A DNA stretch of 64,000 nt, taken from positions 107,446,001-107,510,000 of the forward strand of contig OZ024741.1 in the NCBI GenBank assembly GCA_964016885.1, given 5' to 3'. The position numbers were made by a program, and so were the translations under genes. This document shows positions 4,296 through 54,331 of this stretch, one piece after another. Each line of letters begins with the position of its first letter. The stretch's first letter is position 1. The DNA comes from Eledone cirrhosa. Taxonomy: Eukaryota. The notes under the pieces are model-generated. The model was not told the origin of the DNA. It made no database searches and worked only from the letters and a program-made list of their open reading frames with translations.

Positions 4296-7125
4296 GTTAT
4301 CATGGAATTGCCGTATCAGGTTCAAAAACTTTGTCGGGCATCCAAACTTCGACAGGATCGACCAGAGGGCTTCCCTGTTGACAGTGTCGAAGGCCTTCGT
4401 CAAGTCTATGAAAACGGCAAAGAGGTCCATGTTCTGCTCGACACACTTCTGCACCGGGCGTACAGAGAAGATCATGTTGATCGTGCTGCGGTTTAGGCGG
4501 AACCCACACTGAGCCTCAGGCAGGTTGTCCTCCGAGATGTTGGCATTGAGGCGGTTGAGCATGACCCGAGTCAAGACCTTCCCAGCGATGGACAGGAGAG
4601 AAATGCCCCGATAGTTGCCACAGTCAGTTTTGCTGCCTTTGTTCTTAAAAGGCGAGACAACTGTGGCATCCCTGAAGTCTTTGGGCACCTCTTCTTCCTC
4701 CCATATGCTGACGAGGAGGGTGTGGAAGGCCACCAGGGCAGCTGGACCGGCCGACTTGATATCTCGGCAGGAATCCCGTCCTTCCCAGGGGCCTTTCTTG
4801 AGCTGGTCTGGTTGATTGCCTTCGTGACTTCATCCAACGTGGGGGGAAGGTCGAGGCTGCCGATTACGGGCTTCTGTGGGACCTGGTCGAGGGCGGCAGG
4901 GTCGACAGTGAAGGGCCTGTTGAGCAGGTTGCTGAAGTGCTCTCTCCACCTCGAGTTGATGCTGCTCTTCTCCTTCAGCAGGATCGAGCCGTCAGCAGAC
5001 AGCAGCGGTGTGGTGACAGGCTTGGGGGGTCCGTAGACGTCCCCGATGGCGCTGAAGAACAACTTGGAGTTCTTTGTGTCAGCGTATCTCTCGACTTCTT
5101 CGGCCTTCTTTTCCCACCACTTGTCCTGCATTTTGCGTAGCGCTGCTTGGGTCTGCCTCTGGAGGCGCTTGAAGCGGTCGCGCTTCGAGGTGGAGCAGCT
5201 GTCATTCTGCCACTCAATGAAAGCCCTCCTCTTCTCGTCAAGGAGTTGTCTGATGCGCTCATCGTTTCCATCAAACCAGTCCTGGTGGACTCTCTTCCTC
5301 GGCCCGATGGTTGCCTTGGCTGACTCTGTCACCAGCGACCTGAACTGGTCCCACTGTTGAGTTGGGGGTCCAGTCAGTGGTCCATGGGCAGTCAGCCGGC
5401 CGTCCAGGTCTTCCGCGAACGCATCACGATGCTCTGGCTGCTTGAGTCGTGCGACGTCGAAAGCTGGCCTACAGACTTTCGGAGTCTTGCGATGCGTTGG
5501 GGTGATGTGCAGTAACAGGATGGTCCTGACAAGACGATGGTCGGTCCAACACTCTGCATCACGAATGGCCCTGCTGATTCTGACGTCACGGATGTCCCTC
5601 CTGCGGCATATGGCAAAGTCAATCAGATGCCACTGTTTGGATCTGGGGTCATCCATGTCGTCTTGAACTTGTCTGCCTGGCGGAACAGTGTGCTGGTGAT
5701 GGTGAGGTCGTTCTCGGCGCAGAAACTCAACAGTATGAGGCCGTTAGAGTTCACCTGTGCCGTGAGGTCCCAGCACGCCTCTTGAGTTGCTGCTGTTAGA
5801 CCCGACTCTTGCGTTGAAGTCCCCCAGTAGGATGAGTTTATCGCTTGGGGGGACGCCCTTCACGGGTGCGTTGAGTTCCCCGTAGAAAGCGTCCTTTGCT
5901 TCATCGCTGCTGGTGAGAGTGGGGTGTACGCGCTGATGACTGTGACATGCCGAGATGGGTCGAGGGGGAAGCGGAGCTTCATCAGCCGCTCACTCACAGG
6001 TGTTGGGAGGTCTGGTAGCTGCTTGCAGAGTGAAGTCCTGATGGCCAGGCCTACCCCGTGGATTCTGTCCTCGTCCTTTGCATTGCCCTTCCAGAAGAAG
6101 GTGTAGCCTCCTTTCGGTTCTGCTACTGATCCTTCTTCGGCAATTCTAGTCTCGCTGAGGGCGGCTATGTTGATATGGTAGCGAGCTAATTCCCTTGCTA
6201 TGAGGGAAGTTCTTCTCTCTGGCCTCAAGGAGGTTTCCCTATCCATGAGGGTGCACACATTCCATGCGCCAAAAATCAAGTTCTTCTTTCTATTATGTTG
6301 GTTTCGACCGCTTACAAGGGTAAAACCGCCAGCCGCGGTAGACTGGCCGGCTTTATGTGGGACGAGCATTGGGTTAGAGCTCCTTTTACCGCCCCTACCC
6401 TCGTGTGAGGATGAGCAGTGCTCCCCTGAAAAGGGCTGCTTAGTCGCCCGGTGGAATGCCTGATCTCATCTGTCATCCCAGGGTCAGGAGGAGAACGACT
6501 TGCGCATCCAGGCCGCCCACGTATGGGTTTGAAACTGGCAACTCCCAGAGGTTACCTCCACCTGTTACCTCCGCCTCTCGCCCATCGCCGCAGGGCTTTG
6601 GGACTGCACGCTAAAGAAGAAACCTGTGCGGGAAAGGTTTATAGTGGGAGGGCCAGTGCACAGTGACGGTCTAACTCACTCGGCCGTAGAAGCCAGAATC
6701 CGGTGGTACGACGGACCGTCACGACCAAGGACTTATTTGGCTGCAGTGGATGGCCACGACGCCTGTAGTGCCTTGCTGTGCCCTAGCGCTCCACACCGCC
6801 TGCTCTCACCGCCTTCGTGACTGTTGGGACGATGTTGTCATCCTCCACTTACTCCTCCGGGTCCAGTCTTCGCATGCAAGGGCAGGCATCCGCTATCTAA
6901 CTCACGGGGGTGGATTCAGACCCGTCCGGCTACCCTCAACCTGGTTCGGCCCGCCAGCCAAGGCGGTTTACCAGGGTGTGGCCGCTGTCGCACGCTACAG
7001 CTTCTTGTGGTCACAGGTGAGAACTGAGTGTCAGGTGGGACCCAATGCAGGATGAGCTGTCCTGAAAAGGGCATCACTAATCCCCTCCCCTACAGAGGTA
7101 TATGCCCCTTCCTGACACCCCAGGG
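4296..7125 (-). mobile_element. RTE-clade LINE: 5' UTR, APE endonuclease and N-terminal half of RT; frameshifted, 3'-truncated
   Basis: ORFs 5860-6369 (GAWNV, IAALSETR, GYTFFWKG, HGVGLAI), 4571-5656 (WHLIDF, WTDHRLV, KAPGKDGIPAE) and 4293-4733 (CGNYRGISLLS, QCGFR, FIDLTKAFDTV). It is markedly GC-rich relative to its flanks. Confidence 0.92.
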
Positions 7126-22690: not shown

Positions 22691-23157
22691 TACTAGACGG
22701 GAACTATTTAAAGCCTGTTGAATGAACTGTATTTATAACTCACAGAACGAACCTTATTGTGTCAAACTGAATCTCCCTGAGAATGACGTTAATCGTACTT
22801 GCGCGTTAATTTCAGGAGCAGGCAGTTGGGGATCGAACAATTGGGCACTTACAATCGAAACCGACGGAGATCCATTCCATTCCATTTCATAATTTTCACA
22901 ATGGGCTCCTTCTTTCCCTTTGCCAATCTCCCCCCTCTCTATCTCTGTCTCTCTCTCTCTTTCTCTTCCATACACCTTTTTCTTTTTCACTGTCATTCCC
23001 ATTCTCTCTCACACTCTGTCTCTCTCTCTCTCCATTTCTCTCTCCCCCTTCTCTCTTTCTATCTGCCCCTTTCTCTTATTTACTCCTTCAATCTCTCCCT
23101 TCCTCTCCTGCCCTTTATGAAACAGAAACAAAGACCACGATTGAGTTGTCTCTACCA

Positions 23158-24495
23158 CAACCAGCAACTCACACGTCTACCTCAACACACACACAACCAA
23201 TAAGTCACACGTCTACCTCAACACACACACAACCAATAAGTCACACGTCTACCTCAACACACACACACACAACCAATAAGTCACACGTCTACCTCAACAC
23301 ACACACACACAACCAATAAGTCACACGTCTACCTCAACACACACACAACCAGCAACTCACACGTCTACCTCAACACACACACAACCAATAAGTCACACGT
23401 CTACCTCAACACACACACAACCAATAAGTCACACGTCTACCTCAACACACACACAACCAATAAGTCACACGTCTACCTCAACACACACACAACCAATAAG
23501 TCACACGTCTACCTCAACACACACACAACCAATAAGTCACACGTCTACCTCAACACACACAAAACCAATAAGTCACACGTCTACCTCAACACACACACAC
23601 ACAACCAATAAGTCACACGTCTACCTCAACACACACACAACCAATAAGTCACACGTCTACCTCAACACACACACAACCAATAAGTCACACGTCTACCTCA
23701 ACACACACACAACCAATAAGTCACACGTCTACCTCAACACACACACAACCAATAAGTCACACGTCTACCTCAACACACACACAACCAATAAGTCACACGT
23801 CTACCTCAACACACACACAACCAATAAGTCACACGTCTACCTCAACACACACACACACAACCAATAAGTCACACGTCTACCTCAACACACACACAACCAA
23901 TAAGTCACACGTCTACCTCAACACACACACAACCAATAAGTCACACGTCTACCTCAACACACACACAACCAATAAGTCACACGTCTACCTCAACACACAC
24001 ACAACCAATAAGTCACACGTCTACCTCAACACACACACAACCAATAAGTCACACGTCTACCTCAACACACACACACACAACCAATAAGTCACACGTCTAC
24101 CTCAACACACACACACACAACCAATAAGTCACACGTCTACCTCAACACACACACAACCAGCAACTCACACGTCTACCTCAACACACACACAACCAATAAG
24201 TCACACGTCTACCTCAACACACACACACACAACCAATAAGTCACACGTCTACCTCAACACACACACACACAACCAATAAGTCACACGTCTACCTCAACAC
24301 ACACACACAACCAATAAGTCACACGTCTACCTCAACACACACACACAACCAATAAGTCACATGTTTACCTCAACACACACACACAACCAATAAGTCACAC
24401 GTCTACCTCAACACACACACACAACCAATAAGTCACATGTTTACCTCAACACACACACACACATATATACATATACAACCAACAAGTCACACGTC
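23158..24495. repeat. 36-40-bp minisatellite array (~35 copies)
   Basis: Unit AACCAATAAGTCACACGTCTACCTCA(AC)n with variable (CA) length. A variant head, ACCAGCAACTC, recurs. Confidence 0.95.
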
Positions 24496-32738: not shown

Positions 32739-32835
<97 letters not shown>

Positions 32836-33082
32836 CACTTTAATACATGAATACACTTACATCTAACTATACACATCAAACATATATATATATTTACTTA
32901 TTTATATACATTTTCACATATATATACATACTTATGGACGTTTTTAGACACATTCATTATCGCATATTTGTACCTATTCTCATCAGCATATCTTTCCATT
33001 ATTAGTGTGGTAATTTAAGGTTATTAATATATGTTGAGAAGAGATTGTTTTTATATTTTTCTAACTAGATTAAGGTTTATAT

Positions 33083-34675
33083 ATGAACTTAATCCTTAAA
33101 ATTAAATTCAAAGGACGCAACACCAACAGCAAATTACAGAAAGATATAAAAAAACTACTGGACGACCTTAAAAACACCAAAGGAATTGTAGTAAAAGCGG
33201 ACAAAACATCAAACCTTTACACTATGGATTGCACTACATACAACAACTTCATTCGAAAAGAATTACATAAAAAATATAGAAAAACGAGTGAAGTAACCCT
33301 TAAGCACATCACTGATGAGGCATGCGAAATAGTGAAAAATCTCGGAATCGAAGATAGGACAGGACCACTCTTACCGGCGGTACCCACCTTCAATCTTAAG
33401 GACCACAAGGTAAACTTTGATAATGACCCTAAAATTAGATTAATCTGCCCCTCTAAATCAGATATAGGTAAAATAAGCAAATATATCTTAGATAGAATCA
33501 TCCCCCAAATTAAGGCTAAAGTTAACATTAAACTCTGGGGGAAGACCCAAGAAGCAATAAGATGGTTTAATAGCATTAGCAATAAGAATAAATCTAAGTT
33601 TATCCAGTTTGATATCGATGAATATTACTCATCGATATCACCTGAAACTTTGAATAGAGCCATTAAGTTTGCTAAGGATAACTCTGACCTTACAAACGAT
33701 GAAATTAAGATTATATTAGAAGCTAGGAAAACTATAGTCAAATTTGAGAACAGTTATTGGGTACGTAAAGATAGACCCTCTAACTTTGACAAAACAATGG
33801 GCTCTAACGATTCGGCGGAAATAACTGATATTGTGGGGTTATTTATCGCCTTTAGACTCCAGGAAAAATTCAGCAATCTCCACGGCGGAATATACCGCGA
33901 CGATGTTCTCCTCCTAGCTAAAAACCTTAATAACCAAAAACTAGAAAAACTACGCAAAGATATAAGAAAACTACTACTCGAAATAGGACTAACTATAACA
34001 TATGAATACAACCTTAAAGTAGTTAACTTCCTGGATGTCACACTCAATTTAAACTCTGGTTTGATTAAACCGTTTCATAAATTGAATGAAAATCTCAAAT
34101 ACGTAAATGTTGGGTCTAACCACCCCATCTCTATAATTAAATCTATCCCTAAAAATATTTCCCTTAGAATCTCGGGTCTATCTTCTAACATACAAGTATT
34201 TAAGGAACACGCCGAGTACTACGATAACGCCCTTAGTAAAGCAGGCTACCTCAACAAAATAGAGTACATAGATGGGAACAATCAAAACACCCAAAATAAA
34301 TCCCACATAGGTAGATATAATAACACAACACCAAACCACACTTACTACCATAGTATGCACACCAGTAAACCAACAAACAAAACTAATAGAAAGCGATGCA
34401 AAGAGTACTTATGGTATAACCCCGAATACAATAGTTCCATTAGTACAAATTTACCAGTACTCTTCTTTAAAATAATTAAAAGACATTTTCCCACATCACA
34501 CAAATACCACAACATCCTAAACCCTACCACTATAAGACTGTCATACTCTACAGCGTTAAACCTTGAACAACACATAAAAAAGATCAATACTAGAAGGTTA
34601 AACGAAAACACTAAGAACTTAAGTACAAAGAACACAAAAAAAAACAGTAAACAATACACTACAGAACATAAATAA
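33083..34675 (+). CDS. PLE reverse transcriptase (probably 5'-truncated), frameshifted from its endonuclease
   Basis: 530-aa ORF with VKADKT, LKDHK, PKIRLI, FIQFDIDEYYSSI, TMGS, GIYRDD, VNFLDVTL and GSNHP. Confidence 0.92.
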   Translation: MNLILKIKFKGRNTNSKLQKDIKKLLDDLKNTKGIVVKADKTSNLYTMDCTTYNNFIRKELHKKYRKTSEVTLKHITDEACEIVKNLGIEDRTGPLLPAVPTFNLKDHKVNFDNDPKIRLICPSKSDIGKISKYILDRIIPQIKAKVNIKLWGKTQEAIRWFNSISNKNKSKFIQFDIDEYYSSISPETLNRAIKFAKDNSDLTNDEIKIILEARKTIVKFENSYWVRKDRPSNFDKTMGSNDSAEITDIVGLFIAFRLQEKFSNLHGGIYRDDVLLLAKNLNNQKLEKLRKDIRKLLLEIGLTITYEYNLKVVNFLDVTLNLNSGLIKPFHKLNENLKYVNVGSNHPISIIKSIPKNISLRISGLSSNIQVFKEHAEYYDNALSKAGYLNKIEYIDGNNQNTQNKSHIGRYNNTTPNHTYYHSMHTSKPTNKTNRKRCKEYLWYNPEYNSSISTNLPVLFFKIIKRHFPTSHKYHNILNPTTIRLSYSTALNLEQHIKKINTRRLNENTKNLSTKNTKKNSKQYTTEHK

Positions 34676-35162
34676 ACCACACCTAAGTTCGTCCGCAATA
34701 CTACTCCAGAGAAAACCCAACGTACACAACTGTAACTGCACCTATCCTGACAACTGCCCCCTCGGCAATAACTGCCTGGAAAAAAATATTATTTATAAGT
34801 GTACCATTAAATCCGGAGGCAACGAGTGGTATTACGTGGGATCAACGGCAACATCGTTTAAATCTCGATTGTATAGGCATTCTTACTCAATAAAACACCA
34901 GAGCCAAAGAAATGTAACAACTTTAGCAGAAAAAGCTTGGACGCTCAGGGATAGCGATCAAAAGTTTACCCTAAAATGGGAAAAATTAGCTAAAACCCAA
35001 AGCTTTTCCAGGAGCCAAAATTTCTGCAAATTGTGTAATCTTGAGATTTATTACATAATCACACACAAGAAGAAACTGCTGAATAACAGAATTGAACGAA
35101 CATTATTCTGCCGTCACAGAACTAAAACCCTTTTTTCCCACTACAAGCCGAATATTACATAA
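34645..35162 (+). CDS. PLE Cys-rich linker and GIY-YIG endonuclease (continues the RT after a +1 frameshift)
   Basis: Open frame reads CNCTYPDNCPLGNNCLEKNIIYKC...YYVGSTATSFKSRLYRH...CKLCNLE...LLNNR...CRH. Confidence 0.88.
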
Positions 35163-35429
35163 AAGAGGGACATCCCCCAACTATATAAACCTTAATCTAG
35201 TTAGAAAAATATAAAAACAATCTCTTCTCAACATATATTAATAACCTTAAATTACCACACTAATAATGGAAAGATATGCTGATGAGAATAGGTACAAATA
35301 TGCGATAATGAATGTGTCTAAAAACGTCCATAAGTATGTATATATATGTGAAAATGTATATAAATAAGTAAATATATATATATGTTTGATGTGTATAGTT
35401 AGATGTAAGTGTATTCATGTATTAAAGTG

Positions 35430-35470
<41 letters not shown>

Positions 35471-36030
35471 ATGTATATATGTGTATATGGATGTGTATGT
35501 ATGTGTATGTGTGTACACATGGACTAGAGTATGTATGTATATATGTGTGTGTCTATACGTGTGTATATAAAGATAAGTTGAGTATGAAAATGTATACACA
35601 TGAGCGCGTATGTATGTACATGAATACATGTGTGTATATATATGTGTATGCATGTGTATATATATGTAAGTATGAATATGTGAATTGTGAGTATATGTAT
35701 TTTGTAGAGGTGTGCAAATATATTTGTTTGTGAATGCGTGGGTGAAAGGATACGTACACTTGAAAGAAAAATTTAAGTCTGAATGTTAATTAAGTGCAAA
35801 CACAAAACCAACCACGCATATCTTTACTATCTCTAATCCTTCTATAGATTTAGAAAAATAACCAATAATATATTCTATAAAAAATGTCAAAACAACAGAT
35901 GGGAATCTAATTACTCACTGCCACCAAGAATTCTCACTGCTATCGAAAAACCACTCCTTCAACTATTCTTCTAACAACTTCACCCCTCCCTCCTAATATT
36001 CTCTATAAAAACTAAATAGGTCCTCAGTAA

Positions 36031-36088
36031 TATTATTCTGATGAAATGACAGTAAATAATAACATTGAAATATTGAATGTCTGCATAA
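36031..36088 (+). ncRNA. Hammerhead-like motif in the PLE 3' pseudo-LTR
   Basis: CTGATGA-aatg...catt-GAAA-tattgaatg-TC with a GUC triplet and palindromic stem III. Stem I pairing is poor. Confidence 0.45.
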
Positions 36089-36329
36089 CTAAAAGTTTGT
36101 AGATAGCAGCTGTTTTAGGTTATGTAACTGTTATAGAAACACGTGTCAATAAATTCCTTTCAACTAAACTGTATCCATTCAAATCTTTCTATTTTTCTCC
36201 GGATTACTTTTGGAACTACAACTGGAACCGTCGAGCAAACTCTACGTGAGCTGATAATCTACTGTGTGTAATATTTATATTACAACACAACGGAAAATAC
36301 TGTATATATATATATATATATATATATAA

Positions 36330-39056
<2,727 letters not shown>

Positions 39057-48744: not shown

Positions 48745-48873
48745 TTTTAATATCTTTCTCACACACATTACGGTCTCACCTCATACCAGACAACACATCC
48801 AATGCAGTCGTTTTATCTTTTATCCGTCTAATCTTAACTGTTATCCCGGGCGAAGCCTGGTACCTCAGCTAGT
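48745..48873 (+). mobile_element. Helitron-like 3' terminus
   Basis: GC-rich hairpin cccgggcgaagcctgg about 8 nt before CTAG, followed by T, which is the canonical Helitron 3' end pattern. No 5' end was identified. Confidence 0.5.
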
Positions 48874-48885
48874 ATATATATATAT

Positions 48886-51800
48886 ATTCACTCGAATTGT
48901 TTTCGCGGATATAGGGGTCATCTCCCTTGTCTAATGCCATGTGCGTTTTTCACCGCTAGTTGACTCCTTTGCCGCCAGGATAAAACTCGTTGACAACGTA
49001 AACTCCGTTCCACTTATTCTAGTAGGCTTTTATATTTATATGTGAGCTGATAGAGTACTGTCTAAGGATTTACAGAAACCCATGAAGCTAGATTTAACAC
49101 CTTTCTAGTGGGTCCGGGTATGATTTTACATTCATTTAAATTATTGACGTATTGTTTTATTGATATTTTTTATCTGTTTGGCCCGAATCTTCCTTTATCG
49201 ATTTTAAATCGTATGGTTGATTGTAGACTTGTTCTATATGTGACGGTATTTTAACGATAGTTATAGCTCTGATTCATCTGAATTATTGAGCCCTCTGCCG
49301 CTCATATCGAATTTCGTTTTTCGTGAACTCGTGCGCCGATTTTTCGATACTCGATCTTTCTAATATATTTAGCTCTGGACATAGCTATCCACCAGTTAAT
49401 TTTATTGCTCATTTTTTGTCGATTCTATTGAGTGATGAATAGCTTTTGTTTTATTTTAACATGTCTATTGAGCACTCTAATTCGATATGTGTATTTCCAC
49501 ATTCACTCGAATTGTTTTCGCGGATATAGGGGTCATCTCCCTTGTCTAATGCCATGTGCGTTTTTCACCGCTAGTTGACTCCTTTGCCGCCAGGATAAAA
49601 CTCGTTGACAACGTAAACTCCGTTCCACTTATTCTAGTAGGCTTTTATATTTATATGTGAGCTGATAGAGTACTGTCTAAGGATTTACAGAAACCCATGA
49701 AGCTAGATTTAACACCTTTCTAGTGGGTCCGGGTATGATTTTACATTCATTTAAATTATTGACGTATTGTTTTATTGATATTTTTTATCTGTTTGGCCCG
49801 AATCTTCCTTTATCGATTTTAAATCGTATGGTTGATTGTAGACTTGTTCTATATGTGACGGTATTTTAACGATAGTTATAGCTCTGATTCATCTGAATTA
49901 TTGAGCCCTCTGCCGCTCATATCGAATTTCGTTTTTCGTGAACTCGTGCGCCGATTTTTCGATACTCGATCTTTCTAATATATTTAGCTCTGGACATAGC
50001 TATCCACCAGTTAATTTTATTGCTCATTTTTTGTCGATTCTATTGAGTGATGAATAGCTTTTGTTTTATTTTAACATGTCTATTGAGCACTCTAATTCGA
50101 TATGTGTATTTCCACATTCACTCGAATTGTTTTCGCGGATATAGGGGTCATCTCCCTTGTCTAATGCCATGTGCGTTTTTCACCGCTAGTTGACTCCTTT
50201 GCCGCCAGGATAAAACTCGTTGACAACGTAAACTCCGTTCCACTTATTCTAGTAGGCTTTTATATTTATATGTGAGCTGATAGAGTACTGTCTAAGGATT
50301 TACAGAAACCCATGAAGCTAGATTTAACACCTTTCTAGTGGGTCCGGGTATGATTTTACATTCATTTAAATTATTGACGTATTGTTTTATTGATATTTTT
50401 TATCTGTTTGGCCCGAATCTTCCTTTATCGATTTTAAATCGTATGGTTGATTGTAGACTTGTTCTATATGTGACGGTATTTTAACGATAGTTATAGCTCT
50501 GATTCATCTGAATTATTGAGCCCTCTGCCGCTCATATCGAATTTCGTTTTTCGTAAACTCGTGCGCCGATTTTTCGATACTCGATCTTTCTAATATATTT
50601 AGCTCTGGACATAGCTATCCACCAGTTAATTTTATTGCTCATTTTTTGTCGATTCTATTGAGTGATGAATAGCTTTTGTTTTATTTTAACATGTCTATTG
50701 AGCACTCTAATTCGATATGTGTATTTCCACATTCACTCGAATTGTTTTCGCGGATATAGGGGTCATCTCCCTTGTCTAATGCCATGTGCGTTTTTCACCG
50801 CTAGTTGACTCCTTTGCCGCCAGGATAAAACTCGTTGACAACGTAAACTCCGTTCCACTTATTCTAGTAGGCTTTTATATTTATATGTGAGCTGATAGAG
50901 TACTGTCTAAGGATTTACAGAAACCCATGAAGCTAGATTTAACACCTTTCTAGTGGGTCCGGGTATGATTTTACATTCATTTAAATTATTGACGTATTGT
51001 TTTATTGATATTTTTTATCTGTTTGGCCCGAATCTTCCTTTATCGATTTTAAATCGTATGGTTGATTGTAGACTTGTTCTATATGTGACGGTATTTTAAC
51101 GATAGTTATAGCTCTGATTCATCTGAATTATTGAGCCCTCTGCCGCTCATATCGAATTTCGTTTTTCGTGAACTCGTGCGCCGATTTTTCGATACTCGAT
51201 CTTTCTAATATATTTAGCTCTGGACATAGCTATCCACCAGTTAATTTTATTGCTCATTTTTTGTCGATTCTATTGAGTGATGAATAGCTTTTGTTTTATT
51301 TTAACATGTCTATTGAGCACTCTAATTCGATATGTGTATTTCCACATTCACTCGAATTGTTTTCGCGGATATAGGGGTCATCTCCCTTGTCTAATGCCAT
51401 GTGCGTTTTTCACCGCTAGTTGACTCCTTTGCCGCCAGGATAAAACTCGTTGACAACGTAAACTCCGTTCCACTTATTCTAGTAGGCTTTTATATTTATA
51501 TGTGAGCTGATAGAGTACTGTCTAAGGATTTACAGAAACCCATGAAGCTAGATTTAACACCTTTCTAGTGGGTCCGGGTATGATTTTACATTCATTTAAA
51601 TTATTGACGTATTGTTTTATTGATATTTTTTATCTGTTTGGCCCGAATCTTCCTTTATCGATTTTAAATCGTATGGTTGATTGTAGACTTGTTCTATATG
51701 TGACGGTATTTTAACGATAGTTATAGCTCTGATTCATCTGAATTATTGAGCCCTCTGCCGCTCATATCGAATTTCGTTTTTCGTGAACTCGTGCGCCGAT

Positions 51801-54275
51801 TTTTCGATACTCGATCTTTCTAATATATTTAGCTCTGGACATAGCTATCCACCAGTTAATTTTATTGCTCATTTTTTGTCGATTCTATTGAGTGATGAAT
51901 AGCTTTTGTTTTATTTTAACATGTCTATTGAGCACTCTAATTCGATATGTGTATTTCCACATTCACTCGAATTGTTTTCGCGGATATAGGGGTCATCTCC
52001 CTTGTCTAATGCCATGTGCGTTTTTCACCGCTAGTTGACTCCTTTGCCGCCAGGATAAAACTCGTTGACAACGTAAACTCCGTTCCACTTATTCTAGTAG
52101 GCTTTTATATTTATATGTGAGCTGATAGAGTACTGTCTAAGGATTTACAGAAACCCATGAAGCTAGATTTAACACCTTTCTAGTGGGTCCGGGTATGATT
52201 TTACATTCATTTAAATTATTGACGTATTGTTTTATTGATATTTTTTATCTGTTTGGCCCGAATCTTCCTTTATCGATTTTAAATCGTATGGTTGATTGTA
52301 GACTTGTTCTATATGTGACGGTATTTTAACGATAGTTATAGCTCTGATTCATCTGAATTATTGAGCCCTCTGCCGCTCATATCGAATTTCGTTTTTCGTG
52401 AACTCGTGCGCCGATTTTTCGATACTCGATCTTTCTAATATATTTAGCTCTGGACATAGCTATCCACCAGTTAATTTTATTGCTCATTTTTTGTCGATTC
52501 TATTGAGTGATGAATAGCTTTTGTTTTATTTTAACATGTCTATTGAGCACTCTAATTCGATATGTGTATTTCCACATTCACTCGAATTGTTTTCGCGGAT
52601 ATAGGGGTCATCTCCCTTGTCTAATGCCATGTGCGTTTTTCACCGCTAGTTGACTCCTTTGCCGCCAGGATAAAACTCGTTGACAACGTAAACTCCGTTC
52701 CACTTATTCTAGTAGGCTTTTATATTTATATGTGAGCTGATAGAGTACTGTCTAAGGATTTACAGAAACCCATGAAGCTAGATTTAACACCTTTCTAGTG
52801 GGTCCGGGTATGATTTTACATTCATTTAAATTATTGACGTATTGTTTTATTGATATTTTTTATCTGTTTGGCCCGAATCTTCCTTTATCGATTTTAAATC
52901 GTATGGTTGATTGTAGACTTGTTCTATATGTGACGGTATTTTAACGATAGTTATAGCTCTGATTCATCTGAATTATTGAGCCCTCTGCCGCTCATATCGA
53001 ATTTCGTTTTTCGTGAACTCGTGCGCCGATTTTTCGATACTCGATCTTTCTAATATATTTAGCTCTGGACATAGCTATCCACCAGTTAATTTTATTGCTC
53101 ATTTTTTGTCGATTCTATTGAGTGATGAATAGCTTTTGTTTTATTTTAACATGTCTATTGAGCACTCTAATTCGATATGTGTATTTCCACATTCACTCGA
53201 ATTGTTTTCGCGGATATAGGGGTCATCTCCCTTGTCTAATGCCATGTGCGTTTTTCACCGCTAGTTGACTCCTTTGCCGCCAGGATAAAACTCGTTGACA
53301 ACGTAAACTCCGTTCCACTTATTCTAGTAGGCTTTTATATTTATATGTGAGCTGATAGAGTACTGTCTAAGGATTTACAGAAACCCATGAAGCTAGATTT
53401 AACACCTTTCTAGTGGGTCCGGGTATGATTTTACATTCATTTAAATTATTGACGTATTGTTTTATTGATATTTTTTATCTGTTTGGCCCGAATCTTCCTT
53501 TATCGATTTTAAATCGTATGGTTGATTGTAGACTTGTTCTATATGTGACGGTATTTTAACGATAGTTATAGCTCTGATTCATCTGAATTATTGAGCCCTC
53601 TGCCGCTCATATCGAATTTCGTTTTTCGTGAACTCGTGCGCCGATTTTTCGATACTCGATCTTTCTAATATATTTAGCTCTGGACATAGCTATCCACCAG
53701 TTAATTTTATTGCTCATTTTTTGTCGATTCTATTGAGTGATGAATAGCTTTTGTTTTATTTTAACATGTCTATTGAGCACTCTAATTCGATATGTGTATT
53801 TCCACATTCACTCGAATTGTTTTCGCGGATATAGGGGTCATCTCCCTTGTCTAATGCCATGTGCGTTTTTCACCGCTAGTTGACTCCTTTGCCGCCAGGA
53901 TAAAACTCGTTGACAACGTAAACTCCGTTCCACTTATTCTAGTAGGCTTTTATATTTATATGTGAGCTGATAGAGTACTGTCTAAGGATTTACAGAAACC
54001 CATGAAGCTAGATTTAACACCTTTCTAGTGGGTCCGGGTATGATTTTACATTCATTTAAATTATTGACGTATTGTTTTATTGATATTTTTATCTGTTTGG
54101 CCCGAATCTTCCTTTATCGATTTTAAATCGTATGGTTGATTGTAGACTTGTTCTATATGTGACGGTATTTTAACGATAGTTATAGCTCTGATTCATCTGA
54201 ATTATTGAGCCCTCTGCCGCTCATATCGAATTTCGTTTTTCGTGAACTCGTGCGCCGATTTTTCGATACTCGATC

Positions 54276-54285
<10 letters not shown>
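48886..54285. repeat. Tandem array of ~8.8 nearly identical 615-bp units embedded in (TA)n
   Basis: attcactcgaattg recurs at 48886, 49501, 50116, 50731, 51346, 51961, 52576, 53191 and 53806. The last unit is partial. Confidence 0.97.

Positions 54286-54331
<46 letters not shown>

What the first reader, a model, noticed from the sequence alone, without database searches (positions are those of the whole stretch)
48886..54285. ~8.8 x 615-bp almost invariant tandem array with both ends in (TA)n
Seen: the units look identical except for a G>A near 50555 and a 1-nt shorter T-run near 54090. The copy number is non-integer, no ORF is called inside the unit, and both ends merge into TA repeats. The unit contains gtgagctgata..tactg, also found at the end of the PLE pseudo-LTR (~36246), and an imperfect ~70-nt hairpin (tcga..gagtg..aatag/ctatt..cactc..tcga). 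Inference: a very recent single-event concatemer, for example rolling-circle reverse transcription of a ~615-nt circular RNA or iterative template jumping by a PLE RT, which could be a nascent satellite. I could not find a canonical hammerhead in the unit.
Basis: partly seen in the sequence, partly recalled or inferred. Interest (0 to 1): 0.75.

Follow-up and report, generated by a model that had tools for sequence, protein, structure and literature searches.

The report
Hidden-hammerhead retrozyme copied by Penelope elements
This repeat is one of at least 742 young insertions of a protein-free 615-base element whose every unit carries a disguised RNA fold predicted to cut itself (a hammerhead ribozyme that the standard RNA-family search missed), and which is likely pasted into TA repeats by a Penelope-type jumping gene copying the RNA, probably round a circle.

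Summary
The array is real: 8.78 x 615 bp, two differences, (TA)n on both sides. It is not a single-locus satellite. The same 3' junction occurs 742 times genome-wide, 5' ends vary, and rare two-armed copies pair a long and a short end, as coding Hydra-clade Penelope-like elements (PLEs) do here. It is present in all nine window copies, with compensatory changes across relatives down to about 63% identity. Truncated 5' ends pile up 0-23 nt after its predicted cut. Units within an array differ by 0.05%, arrays by 1.85%, and private changes are strand-biased, which points to repeated reverse transcription of one molecule. Verdict: a retrozyme variant, likely Hydra-mobilised. Cleavage, circles and the partner family are not shown. 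This scan has already noted similar long-armed hammerhead retrozymes and twin start hairpins on other DNA of this and other genomes.

The parts
48886..54287 (+). Tandem array, 8.78 x 615-nt non-coding unit; RNA sense is + (fixed end on the right)
48872..48886 (.). (TA)n at the variable 5' junction
54279..54331 (+). Fixed 'long' 3' end running into (TA)25; same junction 742 times in the genome
48985..49119 (+). Predicted type I hammerhead, copy 1 (repeats every 615 bp, nine copies): stem I 48985-48989 with 49115-49119; core U3..A8 48990-48996; C.A mismatch 48997/49074; stem II 48998-49006 with 49066-49073; GAAA 49075-49078; stem III 49078-49113; predicted cut after 49114
   Evidence: U3-A8 variant described in PMC3088659 section 8
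49115..49138 (+). Zone (unit frame) where truncated 5' ends of other copies pile up, 0-23 nt after the predicted cut
49042..49052 (+). Motif shared with the window's PLE tail; lies in the loop of stem II; also fits a splice-donor pattern; link to that PLE unproven
49249..49259 (+). Minor 'short' end (12 exact junctions; used by the second arm of two-armed insertions)
49266..49291 (+). Start hairpin 1 (RCTC-stem-TT-GAGY), about 10 nt past the short end
49347..49353 (+). Second copy of the stem I 5' strand just before the long end; predicted decoy that pairs with 49115-49121 and blocks stem I in the full-length RNA
   Evidence: prediction only
49372..49473 (+). Start hairpin 2 with an ~85-nt expanded loop, about 12 nt past the long end; two compensatory changes in family C
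32742..36328 (+). Neighbouring Hydra-clade PLE (RT 33074-34675 and GIY-YIG 34623-35162 in different frames, short inverted 5' arm, own minimal hammerhead motif from 36038, ends A 36189 and B 36302). Same two-end architecture; probably not the direct partner family

Best explanation
The array is one recent insertion of a non-coding retrozyme: its transcript is predicted to cut itself at an atypical hammerhead into 615-nt monomers that likely circularise, and a Hydra-clade Penelope-like protein likely nicks (TA)n DNA, starts reverse transcription at a fixed site next to a conserved RNA hairpin and copies the same molecule round and round until it stops. Shown here: dispersed young family, fixed 3' and variable 5' ends in (TA)n, PLE-type long/short two-armed copies, conserved hammerhead fold, conserved start hairpins shared with a coding Hydra family, one haplotype per array, strand-biased private changes, 5' ends piled just after the predicted cut. 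Inferred: transcription, self-cleavage, ligation to a circle, which enzyme copies it. Short copies of 0.39 unit are read as run-off from cut linear monomers; long arrays (up to 26.6 units) as copies of circles; some 1.4- and 2.4-unit copies as run-off from partly cut linear multimers.
For: 29 of 33 visible 3' ends of arrays chosen by full-unit match fall at one site, 3 at the short site, 1 elsewhere. Exact junction counts are 742 long and 12 short, reversed controls 0. 6 of 6 two-armed unit loci with both ends visible have one long and one short end, as do 9 of 9 two-armed Hydra loci (three short ends had impure TA). Hydra elements insert in (TA)n (PMC8557442 section 11). Both unit ends are followed by an RCTC..TNGAGY hairpin that a full-length Hydra in L084 carries twice and that recurs in 15 other sequence groups seen at two or more loci, mostly 38-70 nt before a TA run; 1 of 5000 shuffles put it near an end (descriptor tailored on three examples). 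Hammerhead: 7 of 9 aligned monomers pass the descriptor, 0 of 5000 shuffles do (descriptor written after seeing the fold); the isolated 150-nt window stretch folds into the three-way junction unprompted; position 7 varies freely while U3-U4-G5-A6, A9, GAAA and GUC stay fixed in families A, B and C; stem II has 3 pairs changed on both sides. The GUC site was marked before the 5' pile was seen. Sub-monomer ends in a 27-nt window after it: 10 of 27, then 3 of 8 in held-out loci, p=0.005; none at -1 to -8. Within-array divergence 0.05% against 1.85% between arrays, 15 haplotypes in 18 junction-sampled arrays; private T>C 14 against A>G 0, p=0.002.
Against: Stem I is predicted in the isolated ribozyme (mean pair probability 0.79) but not in the nascent, linear or circular full context (0.01-0.03), so cleavage may be slow or absent. 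The C.A or A.A mismatch at the base of stem II and the U3.G8 form (family B, older A) are not among the variants described as active in the section read. Compensatory changes come mostly from one family, so they are few independent events. Controls for the 5' pile are weak: a canonical 310-nt retrozyme has 3 ends at +12/+13 but only 2 of 8 sub-monomer ends in the window (p=0.16), and the window's Hydra family has 0 of 30 near its own cut. In L036 both arms (2.4 and 2.2 units) begin in the pile, which fits a linear multimer template. 7 of 47 private variants are shared by subsets of units, and L034 is a two-haplotype mosaic. No Hydra ORF runs into the unit in 73 loci tested, and no coding family homologous to the unit was found. 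Hammerhead cleavage was not needed for insertion by a Poseidon PLE in vitro (PMC11167929).
Confidence: 0.7

Rival explanations
1. Hydra-mobilised, but with no circle: the templates are linear transcripts (the 5' pile is a transcription start, or a cut in partly processed multimers), and long arrays come from long read-through RNAs or from the RT re-priming on the same RNA.
For: Ends at 1.4 and 2.4 units and both arms of L036 start in the pile; stem I is disfavoured in full context; MRC1-type non-autonomous PLEs form head-to-tail multicopy insertions in a clade that mostly lacks hammerheads (PMC8557442 passages).
Against: Copying multimers cannot lengthen arrays or fix a new variant in all units, yet 13 variants are fixed array-wide in a single sampled array (one in all 26 units of L105) and 18 arrays hold 15 haplotypes (only part of the 742 sites was sampled). 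Jumping between different RNAs would give mosaics, seen once. No promoter likeness to U2 upstream DNA.
Confidence: 0.18
2. Short (1-2 unit) PLE-type insertions are later expanded and homogenised at the DNA level by unequal exchange, slippage or an extrachromosomal DNA circle.
For: 7 of 47 private variants are shared by subsets of units; one mosaic array.
Against: 40 of 47 private variants are singletons and are strand-biased in element orientation (T>C 14, A>G 0), which symmetric DNA processes do not predict; both arms of inverted copies are multimeric.
Confidence: 0.08
3. Helitron-type rolling-circle DNA transposition, a local satellite, or an assembly artefact.
For: A hairpin followed by CTAG, recalled as a Helitron-like 3' end, lies just left of the array (48845-48872).
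Against: It sits outside the array and upstream of its variable end, and the exact pattern was at 0 of the fetched loci; 5' ends are not fixed; inverted long/short arms are PLE-like; lengths and haplotypes differ by locus at 742 junctions.
Confidence: 0.04

Closest known systems
Metazoan non-LTR retrozymes (Cervera and de la Pena 2020, PMC7229834: passages and Discussion read; Li et al. 2026, 10.64898/2026.07.22.740005: first fifth and passages read)
   Same: Non-coding, low-GC tandem repeat with one type I hammerhead fold per unit, monomer to multimer copies, proposed PLE mobilisation through a circular RNA.
   Different: 615-nt unit against ~220-350 nt; core UUGANAA/UUGANGA instead of CUGANGA; C.A or A.A at the base of stem II; 78-nt stem II arm; missed by Rfam and by a canonical pattern; activity and circles untested.
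Hydra-clade EN+ Penelope-like elements (Craig et al. 2021, PMC8557442: section 11 and passages read; supplements not opened)
   Same: (TA)n target, fixed 3' end, 5' truncation, inverted second arm, optional tail, order hammerhead - short end - long end (108 and 221 nt after the cut in the window's family; 142 and 246 nt in the unit).
   Different: No ORF; no coding family with sequence homology to the unit was found; almost always one-armed and long-ended (1 of 93 long-ended copies two-armed).
Poseidon PAc in vitro (Frangieh et al. 2024, PMC11167929: first half read)
   Same: Two internal reverse-transcription start sites that define the genomic tail; AT-rich targets.
   Different: Different clade; tail there 30-40 nt and start sites not homologous to the target, here ~105 nt and short TA microhomology at both sites.
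MRC1 and other non-autonomous Chlamys PLEs (PMC8557442 and PMC9940879, passages read)
   Same: Non-autonomous, multicopy head-to-tail PLE-type insertions.
   Different: Green-algal clade mostly without hammerheads; those elements share 3' sequence with autonomous partners, here only a hairpin signal is shared.

Membership tests
non-LTR retrozyme | non-coding, low-GC head-to-tail repeat at many loci | tested here: met
non-LTR retrozyme | type I hammerhead fold in every unit (three stems, catalytic core, NUH site) | tested here: met
   nine of nine window copies; covariation and shuffles; U3-A8 is a described active variant
non-LTR retrozyme | canonical CUGANGA core with paired 10.1-11.1 | tested here: not met
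non-LTR retrozyme | monomer of about 300 nt | tested here: inconclusive
   615 nt here; PMC7229834 gives ~300 bp as typical but 150 to >1000 nt in its Discussion
non-LTR retrozyme | self-cleavage of the RNA | not testable with these tools
   indirect only: 5' ends pile after the predicted cut; stem I disfavoured in full context
non-LTR retrozyme | expressed as circular RNA | not testable with these tools
   needs RNA experiments; indirect support from one haplotype per array
Hydra-clade PLE dependent | insertion into (TA)n with fixed 3' and truncated 5' ends | tested here: met
   TA at the 5' side in 47 of 60 resolved junction loci
Hydra-clade PLE dependent | inverted second arm with one long and one short end | tested here: met
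   6 of 6 unit loci, 9 of 9 Hydra loci; rare in the unit
Hydra-clade PLE dependent | sequence shared with the pseudo-LTR of an autonomous family | tested here: inconclusive
   only the start hairpin is shared; no wider homology among fetched loci; most Hydra families of this genome were not sampled
autonomous PLE | RT plus GIY-YIG ORF | tested here: not met
Helitron tandem array | fixed 5' end and whole-unit copies | tested here: not met

The most novel reading that the evidence does not exclude
The unit is a self-switching RNA replicon: an active U3-A8 long-armed hammerhead cuts the nascent multimer, a conserved decoy strand beside the RT start site then locks the ribozyme off in the circle, and each genomic array is a direct record of one Hydra RT rolling up to 26 times round one RNA, with its per-pass errors and the in vivo cut site written into the DNA. 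A large class of such ribozymes would be missed by canonical searches.
Probability: 0.3. Interest if true: 0.68.

Novelty: new variant of a known kind. Interest (0 to 1): 0.45.

Why it matters
Retrozyme copying by PLE enzymes from circular RNA is proposed, not shown, in the papers read. This family gives three genomic read-outs that make it testable: where the RNA is likely cut (5' pile), where copying starts (two hairpin-marked ends shared with coding Hydra elements) and how often one molecule is copied (one haplotype per array, strand-biased errors). It also shows that a satellite-like repeat scored as 'no ribozyme' can hide a hammerhead fold that Rfam and a canonical pattern miss. The class is known and this scan has noted sister families already, which caps the interest.

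Tried and rejected
3) The 9-nt likeness between the unit's long end and the window Hydra's end A: not kept in families B and C. 4) Unit as pseudo-LTR of the Hydra in L084: a TA run and another repeat lie between. 5) Splicing of a possible 67-nt intron (donor and acceptor patterns kept in A, B, C): one gapped-pattern search of family A gave 1 match, a TA junction. 6) snRNA-type promoter: no significant likeness of the unit to U2 upstream DNA or to the 427-nt retrozyme. 7) Other families sharing the exact long end: 3 matches, control 3. 8) A-to-I editing scars: not seen among private or array-unique variants. 9) Public runs: no RNA holder listed; 4 of 7 listed runs were laid, contigs only, and a 615-base cycle in two of them is expected from any tandem array; no conclusion on expression or other species. 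10) Rfam gave no ribozyme hit in the unit or in three loci with A, B and C copies. 11) Pfam did not name the PLE frames; the clade call rests on motifs described in PMC8557442. 12) PMC5785218 was not held; supplements of the papers were not opened and may list Hydra consensus ends or similar ribozymes. Searches that showed no paper on this family: (listings only; subscription journals are not covered).
Full report
Observation. The array spans 48886-54287 with nine starts 615 bp apart (8.78 copies). It has one G>A (50555) and one lost T (about 54086), no frame over 62 codons, and (TA)n on both sides. 'Phase' below counts from 48887.

It is a dispersed family. The unit gave 221 matches among 31 scored of 583 candidate regions in the 3.0-Gb own genome. 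In arrays picked by full-unit match, 29 of 33 visible 3' ends fall at phase 476-482, 3 at phase 373 and 1 at 335; one more array ends in an assembly gap; 5' ends are scattered. The exact long-end junction occurs 742 times and the short-end junction 12 times, reversed controls 0. Of 62 junctions sampled in order along one contig, the median length is 664 bp, 35 reach one unit and the longest is 26.6 units. Two sister families have the same layout and the same fixed end: B (609 nt, 83.6% identity) and C (581 nt, about 63% over the aligned part).

PLE footprint. The window's PLE (33074-35162) has the DKT, CxCX5C, CxxC and CxH motifs of the Hydra clade, which inserts in (TA)n (PMC8557442 section 11); intact copies encode 773 aa with an RWK motif. 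Its copies end at A (36189) or 113 nt later at B (36302), and 9 of 9 two-armed loci have one of each. The unit behaves the same way: 6 of 6 two-armed loci with both ends visible join a long and a short end about 105 nt apart. Two internal start sites that define a tail were shown for a Poseidon PLE in vitro (PMC11167929). The unit is mostly one-armed (1 of 93 long-ended copies two-armed), unlike a 310-nt retrozyme of this genome (39 of 42 resolved).

Start hairpins. Following a lead from earlier scan notes, I tested the sequence just past both ends. Both are followed by the same 7-8 letters (34 of 5000 shuffles) opening an RCTC-stem-TN-GAGY hairpin. Hairpin 1 (49266-49291) was placed near an end by 1 of 5000 shuffles. 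The descriptor, tailored on three examples, also hit 15 other sequence groups seen at two or more loci, mostly 38-70 nt before a TA run. A full-length Hydra in L084 carries it twice, 55 nt before its ORF and 58 nt before its TA end. Hairpin 2 (49372-49473) has an expanded loop and two pairs changed on both sides in family C. The window's own Hydra family has no sense-strand match of its own, so it is probably not the partner. No ORF runs into the unit in 73 loci.

The hidden hammerhead. No CUGANGA occurs on either strand and Rfam finds no ribozyme. The isolated 150-nt window stretch folds into this junction by itself. 7 of 9 aligned monomers pass the descriptor (one has a stem I deletion, one a stem II change) and 0 of 5000 shuffles do. 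Among loci that match the scaffold pattern (broken copies are not counted), position 7 is C, G or U, position 8 is A or G, and U3-U4-G5-A6, A9 and GAAA do not change. Stem II has 3 of 8 pairs changed on both sides and stem I varies only between standard pairs, apart from one mismatch and one gap; the covariation score was reached by 1 of 500 shuffles, but the changes come mostly from family C. U3-A8 is a natural, active variant, and a U.U mismatch at the base of stem II is known (PMC3088659 section 8); the C.A, A.A and U3.G8 forms are not described there. All nine window copies keep the motif. Against activity: stem I has mean pair probability 0.79 alone but 0.01-0.03 in full context. A second copy of its 5' strand at 49347-49353, whose core is kept in A, B and C, is predicted to take its partner; this could be an off-switch or simply a weak ribozyme.

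5' ends mark the predicted cut. I noted the GUC site before mapping 5' ends. 10 of 27 sub-monomer copies end in a 27-nt window after it (window set after seeing the data), and 3 of 8 in held-out loci (p=0.005). Offsets over all 94 junctions are 0, +4, +8 and +11 to +23, with none at -1 to -8. A structural stall would act equally on each pass, so two template pools fit better: linear RNAs with a 5' end at the cut, and long or endless ones. Controls are weak: the 310-nt canonical retrozyme has ends at +12, +12 and +13 but is not significant (2 of 8, p=0.16), and the window's Hydra has 0 of 30 near its cut. A transcription start at the same place is not excluded.

One molecule per array. Over 44 arrays (284 monomers; the mosaic L034, a low-quality small contig and duplicate fetches were left out), units within an array differ by 0.05%. 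The 18 junction-sampled arrays differ from each other by 1.85% and hold 15 haplotypes. 13 variants are fixed in every unit of just one sampled array, one of them in all 26 units of L105. Private changes are T>C 14 against A>G 0 (p=0.002) and G>A 10 against C>T 5, as expected from errors or damage on a first-strand cDNA (inference); 40 of 47 are singletons and 7 are shared by subsets. Copying existing multimers cannot make this pattern without repeated one-unit bottlenecks and re-expansion; a circle is the simplest source. L036, with both arms of 2.2-2.4 units starting in the pile, suggests linear multimers are used too.

Comparison and verdict. It works like the non-LTR retrozymes of PMC7229834, whose Discussion proposes PLE copying of circles, and fits the PLE-origin claim of the 2026 preprint. 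It meets the structural tests except the canonical core; cleavage and circles are untested. Eight paper searches showed no description of this family (listings only), and a look-up by sequence found no earlier scan note on it. Sister retrozymes, long-armed hammerheads and twin hairpins were noted on other DNA; these are unchecked AI notes, not independent support. Earlier notes call the host cephalopod-like; I did not check this. New variant of a known kind; interest 0.45.

Noticed in passing
L225:2015-2623 (-), L209-L233: Sister family B, 609 nt, 83.6% identical, 2530 search candidates, same ends; core UUGAGGA (U3.G8).
   Followed up: yes
L254:1451-2031 (-), L250-L274: Sister family C, 581 nt, about 63% identical, 3173 search candidates, mostly 1-1.5 units; also has a CUGAUGA block with no GAAA partner and a perfect hairpin right after the cut that competes with stem I.
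   Followed up: partly
window 49042-49108: Splice-donor and acceptor patterns 67 nt apart are kept in families A, B and C; no spliced copy found in one search of family A.
   Followed up: partly
L118:4779-5393: An inverted, decayed Hydra RT fragment lies 39 nt from the array's 5' junction; could be a mixed two-armed insertion or an insertion into an old copy.
   Followed up: no
L034:1996-9625: Array of 12 units made of two haplotype blocks, next to an assembly gap.
   Followed up: no
L096, L097, L175: Other hammerhead retrozymes (310, 427 and 511 nt); the 427/511 type has an octamer-like box; the 310-nt long junction occurs 1022 times.
   Followed up: partly
L142, L162, L184: TA-ended elements with the start hairpin and hammerhead-like cores changed at position 4.
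   Followed up: no
window 36330-38878: A second, decayed Hydra-like PLE directly after the first one's TA run.
   Followed up: no
window 33074-35162: The window's Hydra family is young and abundant (150 scored EN matches at 97-100% identity, 1115 exact B junctions); the window copy is 5'-truncated and frameshifted near 34640.
   Followed up: partly
window 48845-48872: Small hairpin followed by CTAG just left of the array, recalled as a Helitron-like 3' end.
   Followed up: partly
window 23156-24459: 36-bp minisatellite, 35 copies.
   Followed up: no
window 4571-6465 (-): Open frames with a weak APE-type endonuclease match, likely a LINE fragment.
   Followed up: no
L275-L286: U2 snRNA genes in a 2.2-kb tandem cluster.
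   Followed up: no
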